Shown here one piece after another: positions 2,447 through 50,398 of a DNA stretch of 50,552 nucleotides (position 1 is the first letter of the stretch; every line of letters begins with the position of its first letter). The notes under the pieces were generated by a model that searched no databases, had not been told where the DNA came from, and saw only the letters and a program-made list of their open reading frames with translations. The translations under genes were made by a program, and so were the position numbers. Origin of the DNA: Escherichia phage ADB-2; the sequence record NC_019725.1; one strand, 5' to 3'.

Positions 2447-2467
2447 GTTTTAACAAAAAGTGCTATT
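2447..2467 (-). promoter_or_regulatory. conserved intergenic element (copy 2)
   Basis: rc = AATAGCACTTTTTGTTAAAAC. Confidence 0.6.
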
Positions 2468-3153
2468 TGCGATCGCTTTGAAAAAACCACGCGGCGACAG
2501 GGATCTTATCAGCTTCGTTTTGGCAGACTTGCCGCCAAGTTTGTTTTGCTGTGCAGAGTACCCGTCAGGCAGATTTACAGGTTTTCTCTCCGGCATGACA
2601 AAATCGTCAGAGGTCCACAGACAAGTTTTCTTCGGGTAAGCATCGCGCGGCGCAATATACATCGGGAACCAGGGGTGTGAGTCATTCTCAGGAAGATAGC
2701 CGCCATACTCCCAGGGATTGAAGGAGTGATTTGGTTTTCTCCACGCAGACGACAGGACGCTTACCGGATTCTCAATGATGTAAGTCACGCCTAGCTATCG
2801 CCAATGTTCGCAGCAATCCGGGCAGTAGCGACAGCCTTCTCCTGGAATAACGGATCGCGTTCACGCTTGCTTGCAAAATGGCGAGCGCCACTAACAGCCA
2901 GGTCAGTGCAAGGAGGGAAAGCCATAATGAAATCCGGCTTGCCATACACACCAGAGATAGCATCACGCTCAAACGCTGCGTCAATGAACACGTTCACATA
3001 CTCAATGTTCGGATGCTCCACTCTGGCATTGTACTTTGCGTAATCTCCGTGATCGGCTCCGTCAAAGTTGAAGCACATCACCTTATGACCTTGCTTTGCC
3101 AGTTCATAACCAGCAATCCCGGAACCGTCGAATAGCGACCAAATTAATTTCAT
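2450..3153 (-). pseudogene. cytosine-C5 DNA methyltransferase-like gene, frame-disrupted near 2790 (possible sequencing indel)
   Basis: N-terminal ORF has LFDGSGIAG (motif I-like) and FPPCTDLAVSG (PC motif IV-like); adjacent ORF in -1 frame begins YIIENPVS (ENV motif VI-like); spacing of motifs matches C5-MTases. Confidence 0.5.
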
Positions 3154-3213
3154 CGTGACTTCCTCTTCTGATTGGTTTATGTGCCGGACTATACCCGATC
3201 TACCCGACCGAGT

Positions 3214-3233
3214 CGTTAGCAAAAAATGCTATT
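3214..3233 (-). promoter_or_regulatory. conserved intergenic element (copy 3, variant TAGCAT)
   Basis: rc = AATAGCATTTTTTGCTAACG; upstream of methyltransferase-like gene. Confidence 0.55.
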
Positions 3234-3854
3234 CCAATAATTGCTCATTATTCCATCAGTGCTGTAATAGGTGGAATAATTTTGATTGTGATTGATTGTG
3301 AATGATGAAACGTGATTATTGCATGGTGTGCAACAGTTGGTTGATTTGTTGCTTAGAATGCAATGATTGTGAGAGGGGGGATTTAGTGTTACCCGGTTCG
3401 CCTGGTGGTCATCTCCATTTTTAGCAAAACGTGCTATCGATTACGGTTACACTTGACCGCGTGTTAACAGTTGTCTACAATTTGCCTGAATCTCAATAGT
3501 AGACAAAATTACACCAAATTACGCCTTATAATATACATATAGATATATGTATATATATAATATATAAGTATTTTTTTATTTGTATATATAGATACTATTA
3601 TCTGTAATATGGTTGTATAGCGTGTCTACTATGTTAATCGTTGGATGCTCTGATTATTGTATTCATGTTTATATATACAGTAGTTTTATCGGCTCATATT
3701 TATATGGGGAAAGCGATTAACACGATTAACACGATTAACCACACTTAAAATCGACCTGCAAGCCTTGACGCAGGCGGGTCGTCGTGTAACACTGCAATTA
3801 GAGACGCGCTGTTACGCGTTAATCATTGTGTATATTGAAAATAAGGAGAAACCT
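3223..3854. promoter_or_regulatory. AT-rich divergent intergenic region with short repeats (candidate regulatory hub / origin)
   Basis: 630 bp without convincing ORF between divergent gene blocks; TATATA-rich; 3 tandem copies of GATTAACAC (3714-3741); inverted TTGTCTAC/GTAGACAA; TGATTG repeats. Confidence 0.5.
3417..3437 (-). promoter_or_regulatory. conserved intergenic element (copy 4)
   Basis: rc = ATAGCACGTTTTGCTAAAAAT; no coding gene directly downstream on minus strand. Confidence 0.55.
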
Positions 3855-9421: not shown

Positions 9422-9624
9422 CAGCAGAAGATGCAGCACGTGAAGCAGTGGAAGGAATGCGACCAAATACCTCCAGAATCGCACACTACTACAAATTTGA
9501 CGTATCAGCAGTGCAATTGGTCCATGAAATTTTAAGGCTCCCACAAGTCGATTCAGCGCGCGTGGTGACGTGCTTAAAAAATTATTTTTGCATCACTATT
9601 AAAACGAATAGCACGAATTGCTAA
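9406..9624 (+). CDS. hypothetical protein
   Basis: 72-aa ORF; C-terminus reads through element copy 11. Confidence 0.45.
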   Translation: MATIMTAEDAAREAVEGMRPNTSRIAHYYKFDVSAVQLVHEILRLPQVDSARVVTCLKNYFCITIKTNSTNC

Positions 9625-9627
9625 AAC
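9607..9627 (+). promoter_or_regulatory. conserved intergenic element (copy 11)
   Basis: AATAGCACGAATTGCTAAAAC then hairpin AGGGGAAT...ATTCCCCT. Confidence 0.6.
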
Positions 9628-9681
9628 CTATCAAGGGGAATGCGCTATGATTCCCCTACACCAAAAAACGAGGAAGCACGA

Positions 9682-10128
9682 ATGAAACACCTAATCTGTA
9701 TTGAAGCACCTAACGACGAGTACACTCTGCATGGTTTAGGTATGTTCAAAGGTCACTACATTACAGCTAAGATTCAAGATGACAAGCTGGATGATGGCGA
9801 TCTGGAAATCACATCGAAAGATGTTAATCCTTACATCATGCAGAATCTTGGAAATAACGAATATATGGCCTACGGCTGCAATGCGGTGTACAAGCATGTC
9901 AATATCCGCAAACGCGTTGTTCGAGCGTTCAAGAAAATTGCAATGAAATACTGGAAGATGAGCAAGAAAGATGCCGGGCGCTGGGCGCGTAACGCTGCTG
10001 ATTTATACTTCTATAGCAGCGGAGAGCCAGCCAACTTCCTGATCGATGAAATGATGGAAAATTATAGCGGCACATTCTGCCAAAGTGACTTTGACGCCTG
10101 GGTTGGACGCGAGTTAGATTACTGGTAA
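9682..10128 (+). CDS. hypothetical protein
   Basis: 148 aa from ATG with GAGGAAG RBS. Confidence 0.5.
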   Translation: MKHLICIEAPNDEYTLHGLGMFKGHYITAKIQDDKLDDGDLEITSKDVNPYIMQNLGNNEYMAYGCNAVYKHVNIRKRVVRAFKKIAMKYWKMSKKDAGRWARNAADLYFYSSGEPANFLIDEMMENYSGTFCQSDFDAWVGRELDYW

Positions 10129-34704: not shown

Positions 34705-34770
34705 TTGCACGTCCTCGTCGTTAGTGTGATTGCATTGTATGTCGCATTTACTTTTATTGCAATAGCGCAA

Positions 34771-35230
34771 TTACAATTTTTTCGTGTAACGGGTGTCTAT
34801 TTTTGTAATCGGAGATGGTGTTACAAAATCCACCCCATCAGAACGCAGGTAGATATGATAAAAACTCTATATAATATATATAGATAGATAATATTTAATT
34901 TTAGCTTTATATATATAATTATTGTTGTGTAACAGTTGTCTATCATGTAACAGGTGATTTGATTGATTCGTCAAATTTCTATCATATATGTTCAAAATTT
35001 AATCAATCTTGATTCTATTCATGGATATCTGTGTATTTCTAAGAAAAAGCGGTTACAAGTATTACGAAATAGACACCACATAAAAACAGGATTAAGCCAT
35101 TGATTCTGTTGATGCTGATTGTAACTTGAACGATATAGACACGCTATTACACACCAATTACATGTATCCGATTGACTAAACGCTGTTAATGGCTATAATG
35201 GATTCATCGTAAACGAAGGAGATAAGCGCA
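34771..35230. promoter_or_regulatory. second AT-rich repeat-rich intergenic region
   Basis: No convincing ORF; shares GTGTCTAY/ATAGACAC, TAACAGTTGTCTA and GATTGATTG words with region 3223..3854. Confidence 0.5.
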
Positions 35231-40467: not shown

Positions 40468-40488
40468 GTTTTAACTAAAAATGCTATT
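40468..40488 (-). promoter_or_regulatory. conserved intergenic element (copy 19)
   Basis: rc = AATAGCATTTTTAGTTAAAAC; overlaps stop of 40471..40923. Confidence 0.55.
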
Positions 40489-40923
40489 AGTCGTTCCGAT
40501 ATCTTCCTTCTTCACGACGCGCATAAATTTCTTGTTCTTGCATCGCTTCTCAAGGCACTTGCCGTTACCGTCAAACTTCAGGTCGAATCGCAACCATGCG
40601 GCCCTAAACCCTTTACACCCCTGTCGGCGGTAAGCGCGATGCGCAGCTTCAGCACCTTGCCATGAAATCATATTGCGTTCTTTCCAGCCTTGCACCGTCT
40701 GATTGCTAACTTTTAGAGCCTTTGCGCAGGCCGCTGGGCCACCGTAATATTCGATAAGAGCATCAAGTCGCGCTCGCAGTCCGGCGCGTGTTTCTTCTTT
40801 ATGAATATAGAACCCACATCTCTGGCGAGGCCTTTTGTCTTTACCTCGTCGCGTTCCGTTGTTACCATTAATGTGACGTTTATCGATTTCACCAGTTGAC
40901 TCTGCGATACGTTGCATATTCAT
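40471..40923 (-). CDS. putative DNA-binding regulator (HTH-like segment, Cys-rich C-terminus)
   Basis: 150 aa from ATG with AGGAGAA RBS; segment GGPAACAKALKVSNQTVQGWKERN resembles Cro/YdaS-type HTH; basic; transcribed divergently from helicase. Confidence 0.4.
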   Translation of the reverse strand: MNMQRIAESTGEIDKRHINGNNGTRRGKDKRPRQRCGFYIHKEETRAGLRARLDALIEYYGGPAACAKALKVSNQTVQGWKERNMISWQGAEAAHRAYRRQGCKGFRAAWLRFDLKFDGNGKCLEKRCKNKKFMRVVKKEDIGTTNSIFS

Positions 40924-41017: not shown

Positions 41018-43035
41018 GTGACAATTAACATCAAAAAGCAAATCGCATTACTTGGCGATGACTACATAAAACGCACTCAAGATCGATTCACTGTCGGCGA
41101 GGTCGTTCCTTACCCGTACCAAGTTGTTGCTTATGCCGAGATCGCGAAACGCCTATCAAATTATGAGCATCCATTCTTCGTTAAAGCGTCTGTATCAGCA
41201 GGTAAGACAATCATCTTCGCTATGGTGGCAAAGCAGTGTCAGAAAATGGGCTTAAAAATGCTCGTTCTTGCTCGTCAGGGTGAGATTGTCGATCAGGATA
41301 GTGAGGAGATTGACAACTTCGGGGTAACTAATTCCATATTCTCAGCCTCATTAGGTATTAAGTCCTGCTACTTCCCGATCGTGTTGGATCTGAGGGTACG
41401 GTTGCAAATGGCCTAGATAATGAGTTGGCTGACTTCGTCCCGCATGTAATTGGGATCGACGAATGTCATCAGGTGGATTGGGAAGACCTTGCGCAAGCCA
41501 TTGATGGCAAGGAAACAATGGAACAAATGAGGGGCGAGAAAGGGAAAATTATCATGGACGGAGATATTCCTCTGATTGGTAATGATGGAAAACCTCTTCT
41601 TGGAACTAAGCGCAGCCAGTACACTATAGTAATCATGGAAATGATGCGACGCTGTAAAGAGGTTCACGGGCACGATCTTAGAATATTTGGTATGACTGGA
41701 TCTGAATTTCGTGGCGTAGTTCCTATTCTGGTAGAGAATCCGAAAGCATTGGGATTCTGGCGTGAGCGAGTAACTGATATCGACACAAACTATCTGATTG
41801 AGTTCGGCTCTGTCGTTCCGACTATATTCGGATCAACAGACGGAGTTCATTACGATCTGGATAAGTTCAAGGCGTCGAGCGAGGACGGAGTGCAGGACTT
41901 TACAGAGAAAGACATGAAGGCTATGGAAGATGAGATCCTTCATGATAAATCTCTTACTCAGCGAATCATGCAAATGGTTGCCAAAAAGGCTGAAGAGCGT
42001 AACGCGGTACTGATTACATGCGCCGGGGTGCGTCACTGTAAAGAGGCGGCGGCTGCACTTCCACCTGGAAGTACCTATGCAATTATCACTGGCGAAACAG
42101 ACACCAAAACGCGCAAGAAGATTCTGGACGATGTAAGGGCAGGAAAAATTAAATACACCTTTCAGGTAATGGCGCTCACTACTGGCGTTAACGTTCCAAA
42201 TTGGGATTTCAGTGTCATACTCCGCAAGATAGGGTCGCTAACACTGTTGATTCAACTTTTGGGTAGGGGTATGCGTCTGCTTAAATCATGGCAGGTTGCT
42301 GAGGGAATGGTTAAGCAGGACCATCTGGTATGGGATTTCGCAGGTACGATGGATGAGTTGGGTCAGCTTTATTTCGATCCGATACTTGAGCAGGCGCAAT
42401 TCCAAAAGCGTTTTGAAAACGGAAAAGACCCGAAAACGTGTCCGAAGTGTGGTTGCGTAAATAGCTTCTACGCTCGCAGATGCATTAACGTCATCGACGG
42501 CGAGCGTTGCGATCATTTCTGGACTTCTCAGATTTGTGAGGACCAGGTTGACGAGCGCACAGGAAAAATCCTTGTTAAAGGATGCGGTGCAGAGAATGAC
42601 GTTGTGGCCCGAGTCTGTCGTTGTTGTGATGTTTCGCTTGTCGATCCTAACCTGAAGTTATCCGGTAAGGCGTACACTAAGAATGACTGGTATGAAGTAA
42701 AGAATTTTGAGGTTACGCTAACCAAAAACCAGAAAGGCATAATATACAAATACACGCTGATTAACGACGATGGTGATGAGTTCAAGGCGTATGAAAAATT
42801 CTTCCCCGAGTCAGACTCTAAGATTTGCGGTACGCTATGGAAAACGAAAGGTGTATTACCTCATGTGTCAGATCCTAAAATGCGTCGCTACTTTATCGGA
42901 ATGAAGAACGCTATCAAGATCGTGCAATACTCTCATCATATAGCGCATCCGGTACGCGTTACTCATAGGCGCAACCAGAAGAAGGAAGATATTATTTCAC
43001 GCAAAGATTTCGGTATGGAGGATATCCCGGAATGA
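41018..43035 (+). CDS. superfamily-2 DNA helicase with C-terminal zinc-ribbon (frame disrupted near 41365-41400)
   Basis: N-terminal ORF has Walker A SAGKT; continuation in -1 frame has DExH box GIDECHQ and later CPKCGC/CRCCD zinc-ribbon motifs. Confidence 0.75.
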
Positions 43036-43448
43036 TTACAGATAAAGGCGATTACCTAGAGTTTTACGAGCGAGATCCTAGCGATACGCGAAAGGAGGAC
43101 GCTCATCAAGTAGACTGCGTGTCTTGGTTGAAATACAATTTTCCTCAGCTTCTATTTTGGCACACAGTTAACGAAGGTGAAAAAACAATCACTTCGGCAC
43201 TTAGGGATGAGCAGGCTGGATTGCTTAAAGGCGTATCAGACTTCGTTATCCTGATAGGTGTAAACTCACGCTACCCGTTTGCAGCTATCGAACTCAAGCG
43301 AGTTAATAAGTCCGGAAAAGGAAAGGCATCACCAGTCAGCGATAAGCAAAGGGAGTTTCTCAAAAAGGTTCGGGATCGCGGTGGATTCTCTGCCGTTGCA
43401 TACGGATTTGAGCAATTCAAGCTGGCGATATACGATTTAACTAAATAG
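43032..43448 (+). CDS. VRR-NUC domain nuclease
   Basis: 138 aa; VSDFVILIG...AIELKR (D...E-x-K) pattern; immediately downstream of helicase. Confidence 0.65.
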   Translation: MITDKGDYLEFYERDPSDTRKEDAHQVDCVSWLKYNFPQLLFWHTVNEGEKTITSALRDEQAGLLKGVSDFVILIGVNSRYPFAAIELKRVNKSGKGKASPVSDKQREFLKKVRDRGGFSAVAYGFEQFKLAIYDLTK

Positions 43449-43464
43449 CACTTTTTGTTAAAAC
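43443..43464 (+). promoter_or_regulatory. conserved intergenic element (copy 21)
   Basis: AAATAGCACTTTTTGTTAAAAC; TAG = stop of VRR-NUC gene. Confidence 0.6.
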
Positions 43465-46823: not shown

Positions 46824-47039
46824 ATGAAAGAATTTTTAACAGCGGCTACGTCAAGCACGGGCGGCGCTTCATTGGTAGGGGCGGCGACAGGGCAACTTTA
46901 TATTGCTGGCGCTACATTCATTTGCTTTCTGCTTTTTGGTGCATGGGGCGCATACTGGAAGTATCGTGACAGTAAGGCAATTCAGGAAGCGTTAAACGAT
47001 GGCGATCTAAATAAGGCGCTTAAGATTAGGGGGAGATAA
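46824..47039 (+). CDS. putative holin
   Basis: 71 aa with hydrophobic segment [21 protein letters not shown] and charged C-terminus; immediately upstream of endolysin. Confidence 0.5.
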
Positions 47040-48756: not shown

Positions 48757-50325
48757 TTAACCCATCAGTCGAGGGTTTATGAAAACAATATCATCAATCC
48801 GGCAAGTGTAGTTCATCTCTTCGAGCGTGATCAGCAGGCTGTCGATTCTCTCAGATACTTTCTGTTGACCGTTGAACGGCGTAACATTCCGGCACTTTGC
48901 AACAATGCTATGAATCGGAGCGCGCCCTTTGTTCTTCTTTGCGATCTCAGTGATAACATCAATCAGCTTACGAGATTCAGCCTCATCACCAGCATACCCG
49001 GCAGCGCTGGCAGACGACAGATAAGTCCTGGAAAGCTCATTGAAGATCATGATTGCTTCCTGCATCGTTTCAAGGTCAATCTCACGGTTGGAACGGTTCG
49101 GTGATTCACCCTCCCAATTCTTGATCGTGTGGAGAACTGAAGCAATACGCAAGGCGTGCTTATCGAACTTGCCGAGATGACCGCGTAGCATTGAGTGAGA
49201 GTATTTCCCACCTGCGGCGAAATCCGGTTCCATCGCCTGACGCGCAAGGTTTAATTCACGCATAGCATTACGGCTTACAGAGAGAACAACGTTTTCCTCC
49301 TTCATAATGTTGTGCACGAGTCGATAATATTTACTCACCAATCCTCGATCGACTTCCTTATACAGCGCATCACCATTTTCATCACAAAGAATACGAGTAC
49401 CTAAAAGCGGTTCCTCACGAACTAAAAGGAAACGCTCAGATACGCCGATGCCTCGTTGGCCTGCGTCCATGATACCCTTGATTGTTTCATCCTGCGCAAT
49501 AACGCAGATGGAACCGACCGGGCAAAGTGATAGGTTGTTATCCTGGTTGGAACGCGCTACCTCCATGTGGTTTTTATCCCACGCCTTAAGGATAAGTTCA
49601 CTGTTTGACTTCTTGTCTGAACCGCCATAAGTCAGGCCGAGCAATGTGTTGATTGCTGTCGCCTCATCAGAGATTACGGAGAAGTGACCTTGAACAGCCG
49701 CCACCTTCGCAAGACCTTCAGGTGTAGGATCTGATACCGCGAAAACAATATCAGCCATCTTCTTGATCTTCTCTTCCAGTTTTTCTTTGTCCTCGTACAG
49801 CGCCGCCGTCGTGTTACCCTTCGGGTCGTTTTTAATTTCCTTCTCGACCTGACGTAGCTGACTGGTTAATCGGGTGCGTTCCTTTTTGCGCTCTTCATTC
49901 AGTCGCTGAATTTCTGCACGCATAGGCGTAATCGCTGCGGAGTTAATCGCAGATTTACCTGTTGAAGGTGGCTGGCTGATTACCATGTAAAGAGCGGTAG
50001 GTTGTTCTTCTCCGTGATATTGAACCCAAAACTTCCCGAGCATCGCGGCTGAGATGCACCCAATGAAATGAGCGTAAGCAGACGAAACAGGAAACTGTAC
50101 AGACTCAGCCTTTGCCTTTGCATATTCGAATACCAGGTTATCGCCACCTAACGAAATCAGAGGGAACTTATCGTTGCCGCTATTGATATCGATCGGATCT
50201 TGCCAAAATGAAACTGAGTCACCATAGCTGTTTTCACGAATTGCGATCGCCACCGGATTAACTCCAGTGCTATTGGCGATCTCAATAATCTGTTGGTAAT
50301 TCAGTTTTGGCTTAATATTAAACAT
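48757..50325 (-). CDS. putative P-loop ATPase (DUF3987-like, replication-associated?)
   Basis: 523 aa from ATG with AAGGAG RBS; Walker A-like PPSTGKS and possible Walker B VISDEA. Confidence 0.4.
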   Translation of the reverse strand: MFNIKPKLNYQQIIEIANSTGVNPVAIAIRENSYGDSVSFWQDPIDINSGNDKFPLISLGGDNLVFEYAKAKAESVQFPVSSAYAHFIGCISAAMLGKFWVQYHGEEQPTALYMVISQPPSTGKSAINSAAITPMRAEIQRLNEERKKERTRLTSQLRQVEKEIKNDPKGNTTAALYEDKEKLEEKIKKMADIVFAVSDPTPEGLAKVAAVQGHFSVISDEATAINTLLGLTYGGSDKKSNSELILKAWDKNHMEVARSNQDNNLSLCPVGSICVIAQDETIKGIMDAGQRGIGVSERFLLVREEPLLGTRILCDENGDALYKEVDRGLVSKYYRLVHNIMKEENVVLSVSRNAMRELNLARQAMEPDFAAGGKYSHSMLRGHLGKFDKHALRIASVLHTIKNWEGESPNRSNREIDLETMQEAIMIFNELSRTYLSSASAAGYAGDEAESRKLIDVITEIAKKNKGRAPIHSIVAKCRNVTPFNGQQKVSERIDSLLITLEEMNYTCRIDDIVFINPRLMG

Positions 50326-50377
50326 CACAATAAACTCCTTAGTTGACGGTGTAAATGATACACTGCCAATGGTATAC

Positions 50378-50398
50378 GCTTTTTGCAAAAGTGCTATT
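50378..50398 (-). promoter_or_regulatory. conserved intergenic element (copy 25, variant)
   Basis: rc = AATAGCACTTTTGCAAAAAGC; immediately after stop of partial gene. Confidence 0.5.

What the first reader, a model, noticed from the sequence alone, without database searches (positions are those of the whole stretch)
34771..35230. Second AT-rich region sharing sequence words with the first
The gap between the minus-strand lipoprotein gene and the recombination module contains GTGTCTAT (34790), TAACAGTTGTCTAT (34925-34940), ATAGACAC twice (35070-35080, 35125-35135), GATTTGATTGATTCG (34958-34972) and ATATATAGATAGATAAT. These echo GTGTCTAC, TAACAGTTGTCTAC, TGATTGATTG and ATATATAGATA in 3223..3854. 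Two dispersed regions sharing an 8-14-bp vocabulary suggest common binding sites for one factor, for example paired origins or co-regulated divergent promoters.
Basis: seen in the sequence. Interest (0 to 1): 0.55.

Follow-up and report, generated by a model that had tools for sequence, protein, structure and literature searches.

The report
Paired origin-like AT-rich modules in T1 phage
A T1-like bacteriophage genome carries two related non-coding modules, each an easily melted TA-rich stretch flanked by short repeated words one DNA turn apart. The same pair is present in all four lineages of its family that were examined, so the modules are good candidates for the family's unmapped replication origins, or else for jointly controlled early promoters.

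Summary
The window is a complete T1-like phage genome (Tunavirus, Drexlerviridae). Region B (34771-35230, between cor and the recE-like exonuclease gene) and region A (3223-3854, the divergent early-gene switch next to the T1 left end) share far more words than shuffled controls. TGTCTAY occurs 11 times in the genome, 7 of them in A+B. TGTAAY occurs 55 times, 14 of them in A+B. The words are not scattered: they form arrays of TGT-words spaced 9-10 bp apart. The genome's only three such chains of three or more all flank a 70-85 bp TA-run. Those two TA-runs are the two least stable duplex segments of the genome (about 5.5 SD below the mean).

The same two-copy module recurs in Rtp, phSE-2 and BMac (three further lineages) with lineage-specific words. 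Its core is 3-6 times less variable than the adjacent recE coding sequence.

My best reading (about 0.45) is a pair of replication-origin-like modules: initiator-binding arrays plus a DNA-unwinding element, comparable to SPP1 oriL/oriR. The main rival (about 0.33) is a pair of co-regulated early promoter/operator hubs. Function is untested. The one paper I found that discusses an origin for these phages reports none.

The parts
34734..34762 (-). Sigma-70-like promoter candidate for the leftward cor gene (TTGCAA-17-TACAAT).
   Evidence: The segment 34711-34750 has diversity pi=0.014 among 14 Tunavirus genomes.
34785..34810 (+). Module B, left array: TGTAAC-ggg-TGTCTAT-ttt-TGTAAT, three TGT-words 9-10 bp apart.
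   Evidence: One of only three chains of 3 or more TGT at 9-10 nt spacing in the whole genome. Conserved in Tunavirus.
34818..34834 (-). Inverted word GTGTTACAAAATCCACC. Region A has the counterpart GACAAAATTACACC.
   Evidence: A conserved block in the 14-genome alignment, flanked by variable spacers. Colinear with region A.
34853..34923 (.). Module B TA-run (71 bp, candidate DNA-unwinding element). TATAAT lies at its left edge (34870-34875).
   Evidence: Second least stable 60-mer of the genome: -54.7 kcal/mol against a mean of -82.1 (sd 5.0). Diversity is pi 0.013-0.014 at 34871-34950. Boundaries.
34926..34952 (+). Module B, right array: TGTGTAAC-agt-TGTCTAT-ca-TGTAAC. It contains the 13-mer shared with region A.
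   Evidence: Nearly invariant in 14 Tunavirus genomes.
34956..35008 (.). Spacer holding the inverted repeat GATTGATT ... AATCAATC. The word TGATTGATT also occurs in region A at 3289.
   Evidence: Diversity is pi 0.026 at 34951-34990.
35051..35076 (-). Inverted array 1. Read on the minus strand: TGTCTAT-tt-CGTAAT-ac-TTGTAAC.
35135..35162 (-). Inverted array 2. Read on the minus strand: TGTAAT-tggtg-TGTAAT-agcg-TGTCTAT. It contains the 12-mer shared, in inverted orientation, with A 3617-3628.
35172..35199 (+). Near-consensus sigma-70 promoter of the recE-erf-ssb operon (TTGACT-16-TATAAT, 11 of 12 matches).
   Evidence: Invariant in Tunavirus. By eye, comparable promoter-like hexamers sit just upstream of recE in Fulano1, phSE-2 and Sweeny.
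3453..3481 (+). Sigma-70-like promoter candidate (TTGACC-17-TACAAT) overlapping A site 1.
3461..3478 (+). Module A, left site: GTGTTAAC-agt-TGTCTAC.
3499..3523 (-). Module A, inverted site. Read on the minus strand: CGTAAT-ttgg-TGTAAT-ttt-TGTCTAC.
3526..3610 (.). Module A TA-run (85 bp, candidate DNA-unwinding element). TATAAT lies at its left edge (3527-3532).
   Evidence: Least stable 60-mer of the genome, -53.3 kcal/mol. Conserved across all Tunavirus region-A variants.
3603..3640 (+). Module A, right array: TGTAAT-atggt-TGTATAG-cg-TGTCTAC-ta-TGTTAAT.
   Evidence: Third of the three genome-wide TGT chains. Aligns colinearly with the region B right array.
3715..3742 (-). Three tandem 9-bp units, GATTAACAC on the plus strand and TGTTAATCG x3 on the minus strand. 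This is the inverted array of module A.

Best explanation
Regions A and B are two paralogous copies of one cis-acting module that resembles a replication origin. I propose they are the so-far unmapped origins of T1-like phages.

Layout of each copy:
- a 70-85 bp TA-run, the most easily melted DNA in the genome, which would serve as the DNA-unwinding element (DUE);
- on both sides, same-strand arrays of 3-4 TGT-words (TGTAAY, TGTCTAY, TGTATAG, TGTTAAY) spaced 9-10 bp apart, which puts them on one face of the helix;
- about 100 bp further right, arrays in the inverted orientation.

Proposed mechanism (inferred, not shown):
1. A phage-encoded protein binds the arrays cooperatively. One candidate is the Cro-like helix-turn-helix protein gp23, which sits between the primase and helicase genes. 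The other is the C-terminal winged-helix domain of the MCM-like DUF3987 helicase gp09.
2. The resulting complex stresses the TA-run. Negative supercoiling behind RNA polymerase leaving the adjacent early promoters (P_recE at 35172-35199, P_cor) helps it melt. Transcription from the TATAAT at the left edge of the TA-run may also help, as at T4 oriF/oriG.
3. The phage helicase and primase (gp24, which has a T7-type zinc ribbon) are then loaded.

Two copies about 31 kb apart parallel SPP1 oriL/oriR.

Shown here: the anatomy, the statistics, the conservation and the duplex-stability ranking. Inferred: protein binding, melting and initiation.
For: 1. The words form arrays. The genome's only three chains of 3 or more TGT at 9-10 nt spacing all abut the two TA-runs (0.06 expected if uniform).
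2. Pooled over 16 A/B-type regions from different genera, same-strand TGT-TGT distances peak at 9 nt (72 observed, 9.0 expected, z about 21) and 10 nt (41, z about 11), with a harmonic at 18-20 nt.
3. The two TA-runs are the two least stable 60-bp and 100-bp segments in the window, Rtp, phSE-2 and BMac. They score about -53 to -58 kcal/mol against a mean of -81 to -86 (sd about 5). The third-ranked segment is about -64 to -66.
4. An unbiased genome-wide scan in all four lineages picks the divergent-switch region as the best alignment partner of the recE-upstream region: window 52, Rtp 141, phSE-2 72, BMac 159. With block shuffles the z-scores are 4.5, 30.5, 10.7 and 23.3.
5. The two copies in one genome share that lineage's own words, which differ between lineages (TGTAAC/TGTCTA in Tunavirus, GTAAGAT in Webervirus, TGTTCT/GAACAA in Tempevirinae). 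This fits co-evolution with a phage-encoded binder.
6. Purifying selection is strong: pi is 0.013-0.026 at 34871-34990, against roughly 0.02-0.14 (typically about 0.07) in the recE coding sequence.
7. The least stable 60-mer lies 328-387 bp upstream of the recE ATG in 44 of 45 loci.
8. recE already has its own near-consensus promoter next to its ribosome-binding site, so the module is not needed simply to start recE transcription.
9. The phage encodes its own replication machinery. gp09 (DUF3987) models with mean pLDDT 88 and its best fold matches are MCM2-7 and archaeal MCM AAA+ helicases (E down to 5e-5), with a short C-terminal segment matching winged-helix domains. The primase carries Zn_Ribbon_Prim.
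10. The TLS reannotation paper looked for an origin in TLS (lambda-type iterons, GATC clusters) and did not identify one (PMC11447400). A second T1-like genome paper found no oriC-like site (PMC7718038).
11. There is a precedent: SPP1 has two distant origins with direct repeats plus an AT-rich DUE, both bound by gp38 (PMC6316719).
Against: - There is no functional evidence of any kind: no binding, no initiation mapping.
- Both copies always sit upstream of an operon and point the same way as it. In Webervirus the recE operon is inverted and the module is inverted with it. That is what a transcriptional element would do.
- TATAAT sits at the left edge of the TA-run in 12 of 20 copies examined. 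This suggests a -10 element, although no -35 could be found.
- In T1-type genomes the modules are not next to the candidate initiator genes.
- Arrays of short direct repeats also occur at repressor-bound promoters, for example R1 parC and MetJ boxes (from my own knowledge).
- An unrelated Vibrio myovirus, K92, also has two related AT-rich modules at divergent switches. Paired AT-rich regulatory regions may therefore be a general feature of early operons rather than of origins.
- In the window itself the colinear A/B similarity is modest once local composition is controlled (z=4.5).
Confidence: 0.45

Rival explanations
1. The modules are purely transcriptional control hubs: two paralogous early-promoter and operator regions, functionally like lambda OL/OR or the iteron-flanked R1 parC promoter. 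A phage regulator (the Cro-like gp23) binds the TGT-word arrays to activate or shut off early transcription of the rightward early genes (A) and of recE-erf-ssb and cor (B). The TA-run acts as a promoter core or UP-like, easily melted region.
For: - Both copies lie upstream of an operon and point the same way as it, and this holds even after the Webervirus inversion.
- TATAAT sits at the left edge of the TA-run in 12 of 20 copies.
- Sigma-70-like promoters lie inside or next to the modules.
- ATTACA words sit just upstream of the -35 hexamer of P_recE.
- A conserved Cro-like HTH protein exists in all four lineages, and its recognition helix differs between lineages as the words do.
- Vibrio phage K92 has paired AT-rich modules at two divergent switches.
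Against: - No usable -35 element, and no activator site at a fixed distance, could be found for the embedded TATAAT. The upstream conserved block lies about 28 bp further away in B than in A (positions counted by hand).
- TATAAT is missing from 8 of 20 copies.
- recE has its own near-consensus promoter about 300 bp downstream of the TA-run.
- A 70-85 bp alternating TA-run that is the genome's stability minimum is far more than a promoter needs.
- The words are same-strand repeats spaced one helical turn apart, not the palindromes typical of Cro/CI-type dimers.
- The known 21-nt repeat family is a separate set of elements co-oriented with transcription, and it is absent from region B.
Confidence: 0.33
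2. The modules are scaffolds for host nucleoid proteins (Fis, IHF or H-NS type) that organise or bend the injected genome, with no dedicated phage binder.
For: The DNA is very AT-rich. Left of the TA-run, several lineages carry an element that fits the Fis consensus GNNYAWWWWWTRNNC: GCGCAAAATTTGAGC in L019 and L047, and GCGCAAAATTTAACC in BMac (matched by eye).
Against: The repeated words differ between lineages that infect the same host, E. coli (T1, Rtp, TLS/Hanrivervirus). That argues for a phage-specific binder. The Fis-like element is not present in the window's own modules.
Confidence: 0.08
3. The modules are packaging or recombination signals: pac-like terminase sites or recombination hot spots that exploit the adjacent RecE/Erf system.
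For: Region A contains the position that corresponds to the T1 left end, about window 3319. It is flanked by TGATTG-rich repeats, and the word TGATTGATT recurs in B. Module B directly precedes the recombination genes.
Against: The shared module lies 150-300 bp to the right of the T1 end position. As far as I know, no second pac site is known in T1. Direct repeats 31 kb apart would delete essential genes if they recombined.
Confidence: 0.05
4. The similarity is due to chance or base composition, or the region encodes a small protein or a structured RNA.
For: Part of the similarity is low-complexity TA sequence. A 46-codon ORF (34963-35103, T1 CPTT1_049) stays open in all 14 Tunavirus genomes.
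Against: - Shuffle tests, genome-wide enrichment, the spacing of the words and cross-lineage conservation all exclude chance.
- The small ORF lies outside the TA-run and its flanking arrays and carries many amino-acid changes.
- Rfam finds nothing, and RNA folding z-scores are -0.1 and -0.55.
Confidence: 0.03

Closest known systems
Bacillus phage SPP1 oriL / oriR
   Same: A pac-type siphovirus of about 44-50 kb with two distant cis elements of similar organisation: direct repeats plus an AT-rich DNA-unwinding element. Both are bound by one phage initiator. One copy lies in an intergenic region among late genes, and the system is linked to exonuclease, annealase and SSB driven recombination-dependent replication (PMC6316719).
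   Different: There is no sequence or protein homology (SPP1 uses gp38, gp39 and a DnaB-type gp40). SPP1 oriL lies inside the initiator gene. Here both copies are intergenic, the arrays flank the unwinding element on both sides with 9-10 bp spacing, and function is untested.
SaPI (staphylococcal pathogenicity island) origin
   Same: Element-specific short iterons flank an AT-rich stretch and are recognised by an element-encoded helicase-type initiator (from my own knowledge; not checked in a paper here).
   Different: One copy per element, adjacent to the rep gene, in a Gram-positive satellite. No homology was tested.
T4 oriF(uvsY)/oriG(34) and the T7 primary origin (promoter plus downstream unwinding element)
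   Same: A -10-type hexamer without a canonical -35, followed directly by an easily melted stretch of 50 bp or more. There are several copies per genome, an early origin mode followed by recombination-dependent replication, and one T4 origin lies next to a recombination gene (from my own knowledge).
   Different: The T4 and T7 origins have no flanking word arrays. TATAAT is present in only 12 of 20 copies here. R-loop formation is untested.
Lambda OL/OR operators, and the R1 parC iteron-flanked promoter
   Same: Two dispersed control regions share one regulator's site vocabulary (OL/OR). In parC, arrays of direct repeats spaced about one helical turn apart sit on both sides of a promoter core (from my own knowledge).
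   Different: Lambda operators are palindromic 17-mers that overlap the promoters. Here the words are direct 6-7-mers, mostly 150-400 bp from the gene-proximal promoters, and they flank a long TA-run.
The 21-nt direct repeat of T1-like phages (aaATAGCACnnnTTGnTAAAA; TLS paper PMC11447400)
   Same: A repeated intergenic element of Drexlerviridae of unknown function. One copy lies in region A (3419-3437, minus strand).
   Different: It is a different family: 23 copies across the genome, co-oriented with transcription, and none in region B. It does not contain the TGT-word vocabulary.

Membership tests
Iteron-plus-DUE replication origin (lambda ori, iteron plasmids, SPP1 oriL/oriR, SaPI ori) | Three or more repeated short sites in regularly spaced arrays | tested here: met
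   Chains of 3-4 TGT-words at 9-10 bp spacing. The only three such chains in the genome flank the TA-runs. A lag-9/10 peak is seen across the family.
Iteron-plus-DUE replication origin (lambda ori, iteron plasmids, SPP1 oriL/oriR, SaPI ori) | An adjacent AT-rich DNA-unwinding element | tested here: met
   The TA-runs at 34853-34923 and 3526-3610 are the two least stable segments of the genome. The same is true in Rtp, phSE-2 and BMac.
Iteron-plus-DUE replication origin (lambda ori, iteron plasmids, SPP1 oriL/oriR, SaPI ori) | Specific binding of a cognate initiator to the repeats | not testable with these tools
   Only candidates can be named: the gp23 HTH protein and the MCM-like gp09 with a winged helix.
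Iteron-plus-DUE replication origin (lambda ori, iteron plasmids, SPP1 oriL/oriR, SaPI ori) | Replication initiates at the site, or the site supports replication in trans | not testable with these tools
   This needs marker-frequency analysis or an origin-plasmid assay.
Iteron-plus-DUE replication origin (lambda ori, iteron plasmids, SPP1 oriL/oriR, SaPI ori) | Location in or next to the initiator or replication genes (usual, not obligatory) | tested here: inconclusive
   In the window the modules are 4-5 kb or more from the gp23/primase/helicase genes. In Webervirus, module B directly adjoins the primase gene.
Promoter-plus-DUE origin (T4 oriF/oriG, T7 primary origin) | A functional promoter directly upstream of the unwinding element | tested here: inconclusive
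   TATAAT lies at the left edge of the TA-run in 12 of 20 copies. No -35 or element at a fixed distance was found.
Sigma-70 promoter/operator control region (lambda OL/OR type) | Operators overlap the regulated promoters and are palindromic | tested here: not met
   The words are direct repeats, mostly 150-400 bp upstream of P_recE. Only two ATTACA words abut its -35 hexamer.
21-nt direct repeat family of T1-like phages (TLS paper) | Match to ATAGCACnnnTTGnTAAAA | tested here: not met
   There are 23 matches in the window, none in 34771-35230 and one in region A outside the shared module.
Structured RNA / Rfam family | A covariance-model hit or unusually stable fold | tested here: not met
   No Rfam hits. 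Folding z-scores are -0.11 and -0.55.

The most novel reading that the evidence does not exclude
Drexlerviridae, T1 included, replicate from two paralogous origins. Each origin is a TA-run unwinding element bracketed by TGT-word arrays spaced about one helical turn apart. A phage-encoded initiator recognises the arrays and recruits the MCM-like DUF3987 helicase gp09. The recE-proximal copy couples origin firing, or fork arrest, to the RecE/Erf/SSB recombination system that builds concatemers, in the way proposed for SPP1 oriL/oriR. A similar paired design may exist in unrelated phages such as Vibrio phage K92.
Probability: 0.4. Interest if true: 0.65.

Novelty: new member of a known kind. Interest (0 to 1): 0.55.

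Why it matters
T1 is one of the seven classical T phages and a notorious laboratory contaminant, yet I found no description of its replication origin. The one paper I found that addresses the question for a T1-like phage (TLS, 2024) looked for an origin and did not identify one.

The two modules give precise, conserved, testable targets of about 300 bp each for origin mapping, for origin-plasmid assays and for binding studies with gp23 and gp09. If they are origins, they would:
- provide a Gram-negative counterpart to SPP1's two-origin system;
- link a phage MCM-like helicase to a defined cis site;
- offer handles for engineering or blocking T1-like phages.

If instead they are regulatory hubs, they would define the early transcription switch of the family, which is equally undescribed.

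Tried and rejected
- **Covariation between A and B.** T1 itself has GTATAT/GTATAC in place of GTCTAY at two sites in A and two in B, which looked like concerted change. But JMPW2 has the T1-type A with the window-type B, so there is no strict covariation.
- **First alignment control.** It used whole-region dinucleotide shuffles, which destroy the local TA-run and overstate significance. An outgroup phage showed that TA-runs align with each other. I repeated the test with 20-nt block shuffles.
- **Promoter for the embedded TATAAT.** I looked for a -35 or a fixed upstream element and found none consistent. TATAAT is absent from 8 of 20 copies.
- **Known 21-nt repeat family.** It does not explain the finding.
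- **RNA.** Rfam and RNA folding give no RNA element.
- **Satellites, plasmids or prophages carrying the module.** Region B has no match in 5,426 E. coli genomes or in 72,556 plasmids.
- **Solved structures, by sequence.** Searches for gp09 and gp23 gave nothing useful.
- **Host-factor sites.** I compared the words with DnaA, IHF, ArcA, GalR, TyrR and sigma-70 -35 sites by eye. No convincing or general match emerged; this was not tested statistically.
- **T7-type primase recognition.** The GTC in GTGTC was considered and dropped, because T1 itself lacks GTC at those sites.
- **Literature.** I could not obtain the T1 (PMID 14972552) or Rtp genome papers, so an earlier mention of these regions there cannot be excluded.

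Full report
**Identity and setting.** The window is a complete genome of a T1-like phage (Tunavirus, Drexlerviridae). It is 91-95% identical to JMPW2, SH2 and T1 around the finding, and no identical record is in the phage collection. Region B (34771-35230) is the non-coding gap between the leftward cor superinfection-exclusion lipoprotein gene and the rightward recE-like exonuclease VIII, Erf and SSB operon. Region A (3223-3854) is the large gap at the divergent switch between the leftward early arm and the first rightward gene, the T1 orf77 homologue. Position 1 of the T1 record, its left end, maps to about window 3319. A and B are the two largest non-coding regions in the genome.

**Checking the observation.** All the quoted words exist within 0-10 bp of the stated coordinates. 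Shared k-mers between A and B greatly exceed 1000 dinucleotide shuffles. For k=9 there are 26 shared words against 6.8 expected, and 10 against 1.6 when only words with at least 3 G/C are counted. No shuffle reached either value. Against the whole genome, region B's longest shared non-AT word is the 13-mer TAACAGTTGTCTA in region A, and one of its three 12-mer matches (ATAGCGTGTCTA, inverted) is also in A.

The word families are strongly concentrated in A+B, which together are 2.2% of the genome:
- TGTCTAY: 7 of 11 occurrences.
- TGTAAY: 14 of 55, against 1.2 expected.
- GTMTAY: 12 of 58, against 1.25 expected.

By combined word density, A and B are the top two regions of the genome.

**Anatomy.** The words form arrays rather than lying scattered.
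- In B, the left array reads TGTAAC-ggg-TGTCTAT-ttt-TGTAAT (34785-34810).
- A 71-bp TA-run follows (34853-34923).
- The right array reads TGTGTAAC-agt-TGTCTAT-ca-TGTAAC (34926-34952).
- After a spacer of about 100 bp come two arrays in the opposite orientation (35051-35076 and 35135-35162).
- Then comes a near-consensus sigma-70 promoter (35172-35199, 11 of 12 matches) and recE.
- Region A has the same plan: site 3461-3478, inverted site 3499-3523, an 85-bp TA-run (3526-3610), a four-word array (3603-3640), and an inverted array of three tandem 9-mers (3715-3742).

In the whole 50.5-kb genome, on both strands, only three chains of three or more TGT at 9-10 nt spacing exist. All three flank the TA-runs (0.06 expected if uniform). 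By nearest-neighbour stability, the two TA-runs are the two least stable 60-mers and 100-mers of the genome: -53.3 and -54.7 kcal/mol, against a mean of -82.1 (sd 5.0). The third-ranked segment is -64.4.

**Comparative evidence.** In 14 Tunavirus genomes the core 34871-34990 has nucleotide diversity 0.013-0.026. The recE coding sequence ranges from about 0.02 to 0.14, typically about 0.07. Variable spacers separate conserved blocks, which is the pattern expected of a footprint. Region A is conserved in the same way, even where the downstream gene is only 42-48% identical.

Whole genomes from three further lineages show the same design: Rtp (Braunvirinae), phSE-2 (Tempevirinae) and BMac (Webervirus).
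- The genome-wide best alignment partner of the recE-upstream region is the divergent-switch region, in the orientation of the downstream genes. Scores are 141, 72 and 159, against 52 in the window.
- In each genome the two TA-runs are the two stability minima.
- Each lineage has its own words, and both of its copies share them.

In 44 of 45 IMG/VR loci, the stability minimum lies 328-387 bp upstream of the recE start codon. Pooled over 16 regions, same-strand TGT-TGT distances peak at 9 nt (z about 21) and 10 nt (z about 11), with a harmonic at 18-20 nt. These regions are phylogenetically related, so the z-scores overstate how independent the observations are.

**A necessary correction.** An outgroup, the Vibrio myovirus K92, also showed its two stability minima as mutual best partners. 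This warned me that TA-runs align with one another because of composition alone. I repeated the test with shuffles that preserve local composition (20-nt blocks). The window's A-B score then has z=4.5, and 1 of 300 shuffles reached 53. Rtp, phSE-2, BMac and K92 remain very strong (z 30.5, 10.7, 23.3 and 13.9). The K92 alignment includes segments that are not low-complexity. Paired AT-rich modules at operon starts therefore also occur outside Drexlerviridae.

**What it is not.**
- It is not the known 21-nt direct repeat of T1-like phages (ATAGCACnnnTTGnTAAAA). That family has 23 copies in the window and none in B (PMC11447400).
- It is not an Rfam family or a stably folded RNA.
- It is not found in E. 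coli genomes or plasmids.
- A 46-codon ORF (34963-35103) stays open in all 14 Tunavirus genomes. It lies outside the TA-run and its flanking arrays, and it changes many residues.

**Candidate trans factors.**
- A Cro-like helix-turn-helix protein, T1 gp23 (window 40474-40923, minus strand; phrog_2856), lies between the primase and helicase genes in all four lineages. Its recognition helix differs between lineages: SNQTVQGW in T1 and the window, TPQAVEEW in Rtp, NLKTVWGW in phSE-2 and SIQVVQQW in BMac.
- The DUF3987 protein gp09 (48757-50388, minus strand) models confidently (mean pLDDT 88). Its best structural matches are MCM2-7 and archaeal MCM AAA+ helicases, and a short C-terminal segment matches winged-helix domains.
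- The primase has a T7-type zinc ribbon.
- The gp22 helicase is RadD-like, a superfamily 2 helicase.

The phage therefore encodes its own initiation-competent machinery, but no origin has been assigned. The TLS reannotation paper looked for one (lambda-type iterons, GATC clusters) and did not identify it. A second T1-like genome paper found no oriC-like site.

**Interpretation.** I favour, at about 0.45, a pair of origin-like modules: arrays bound by an initiator on both sides of a DNA-unwinding element. Divergent or adjacent early transcription would help melt that element, and so might transcription from the TATAAT at its left edge. [quoted passage not shown]

The main rival, at about 0.33, is a pair of co-regulated early promoter/operator hubs.
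- In its favour: the module always keeps the orientation of the operon downstream of it, even through the Webervirus inversion. TATAAT is present in 12 of 20 copies. K92 shows the same pairing at divergent switches.
- Against it: no -35 or activator site at a fixed distance was found. recE has its own strong promoter 300 bp downstream. The TA-run is far longer than a promoter needs. The sites are direct repeats rather than palindromes.

A hybrid is also possible, namely a promoter-plus-unwinding-element origin of the T4 oriF/oriG type. I count it under the best explanation.

**Verdict.** The interpretation, shared sites for one factor acting as paired origins or co-regulated promoters, is partly supported. 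Function remains inferred throughout.

Noticed in passing
window, genome-wide; e.g. 3419-3437(-), 9608-9626(+), 43445-43463(+): The 21-nt direct repeat ATAGCACnnnTTGnTAAAA described for TLS and T1 occurs 23 times with 2 or fewer mismatches, against 0.12 expected. Most copies are co-oriented with the local genes. Its function is still unknown according to the TLS paper.
   Followed up: partly
window 3663-3682: TCATGTTTATATATACAGTA matches the LexA SOS-box consensus TACTGTATATATATACAGTA with 3 mismatches. It is the only such site in the genome (0 expected) and is conserved in all Tunavirus region-A sequences. One mismatch hits the critical CTG, so binding is doubtful.
   Followed up: partly
window 41018-43035 and 2450-3222: Two genes look frameshifted. 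The RadD-like SF2 helicase (T1 gp22) is split into 41018-41416 and 41425-43035, with the reading frame changing near 41385. The Dcm-like methyltransferase is split into 2791-3222 and 2450-2788. The helicase, and the BMac methyltransferase homologue, are single ORFs in the other genomes examined. Sequencing or assembly errors are likely.
   Followed up: partly
window 48757-50388 (-): The DUF3987 protein (T1 gp09, PHROG 'DNA helicase') has a confident AlphaFold model. Its best PDB fold matches are eukaryotic and archaeal MCM AAA+ helicases, and a short C-terminal segment matches winged-helix domains. It is probably the phage's replicative or initiator helicase.
   Followed up: partly
window ~34670 (inside the cor gene): There is a sharp mosaic boundary. 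Nucleotide diversity among 14 Tunavirus genomes jumps from under 0.1 to the right of about 34670 to 0.35-0.5 to the left (the rest of cor and the upstream tail-associated genes). This marks a recombination breakpoint at the edge of the conserved module.
   Followed up: no
L077 (Vibrio phage K92, OZ195871.1) ~9566-9682 and ~46891-47004: This unrelated myovirus with a distant RecE homologue also has two related AT-rich modules (alignment score 64, block-shuffle z 13.9). They are its two duplex-stability minima, and both lie at divergent strand switches.
   Followed up: partly
L019 ~805-819, L047, L063 (BMac) region B and A; compare window 34818-34834: Left of the TA-run, several lineages carry GCGCAAAATTTGAGC or GCGCAAAATTTAACC, which fits the Fis consensus GNNYAWWWWWTRNNC by eye. 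Tunavirus has GTGTTACAAAATCCACC at the equivalent place instead.
   Followed up: no
window 34963-35103 (+): A 46-codon TTG-initiated ORF (annotated in T1 as CPTT1_049) is open in all 14 Tunavirus genomes compared, although the region is AT-rich. It shows many amino-acid replacements.
   Followed up: partly
window 3280-3370: TGATTG/GATTGTG-rich repeats sit immediately next to the position that corresponds to the T1 record's left end (about 3319). Similar TGATT-rich clusters occur in region A of Rtp, phSE-2 and BMac. They may be the recognition region for pac or the small terminase subunit.
   Followed up: no
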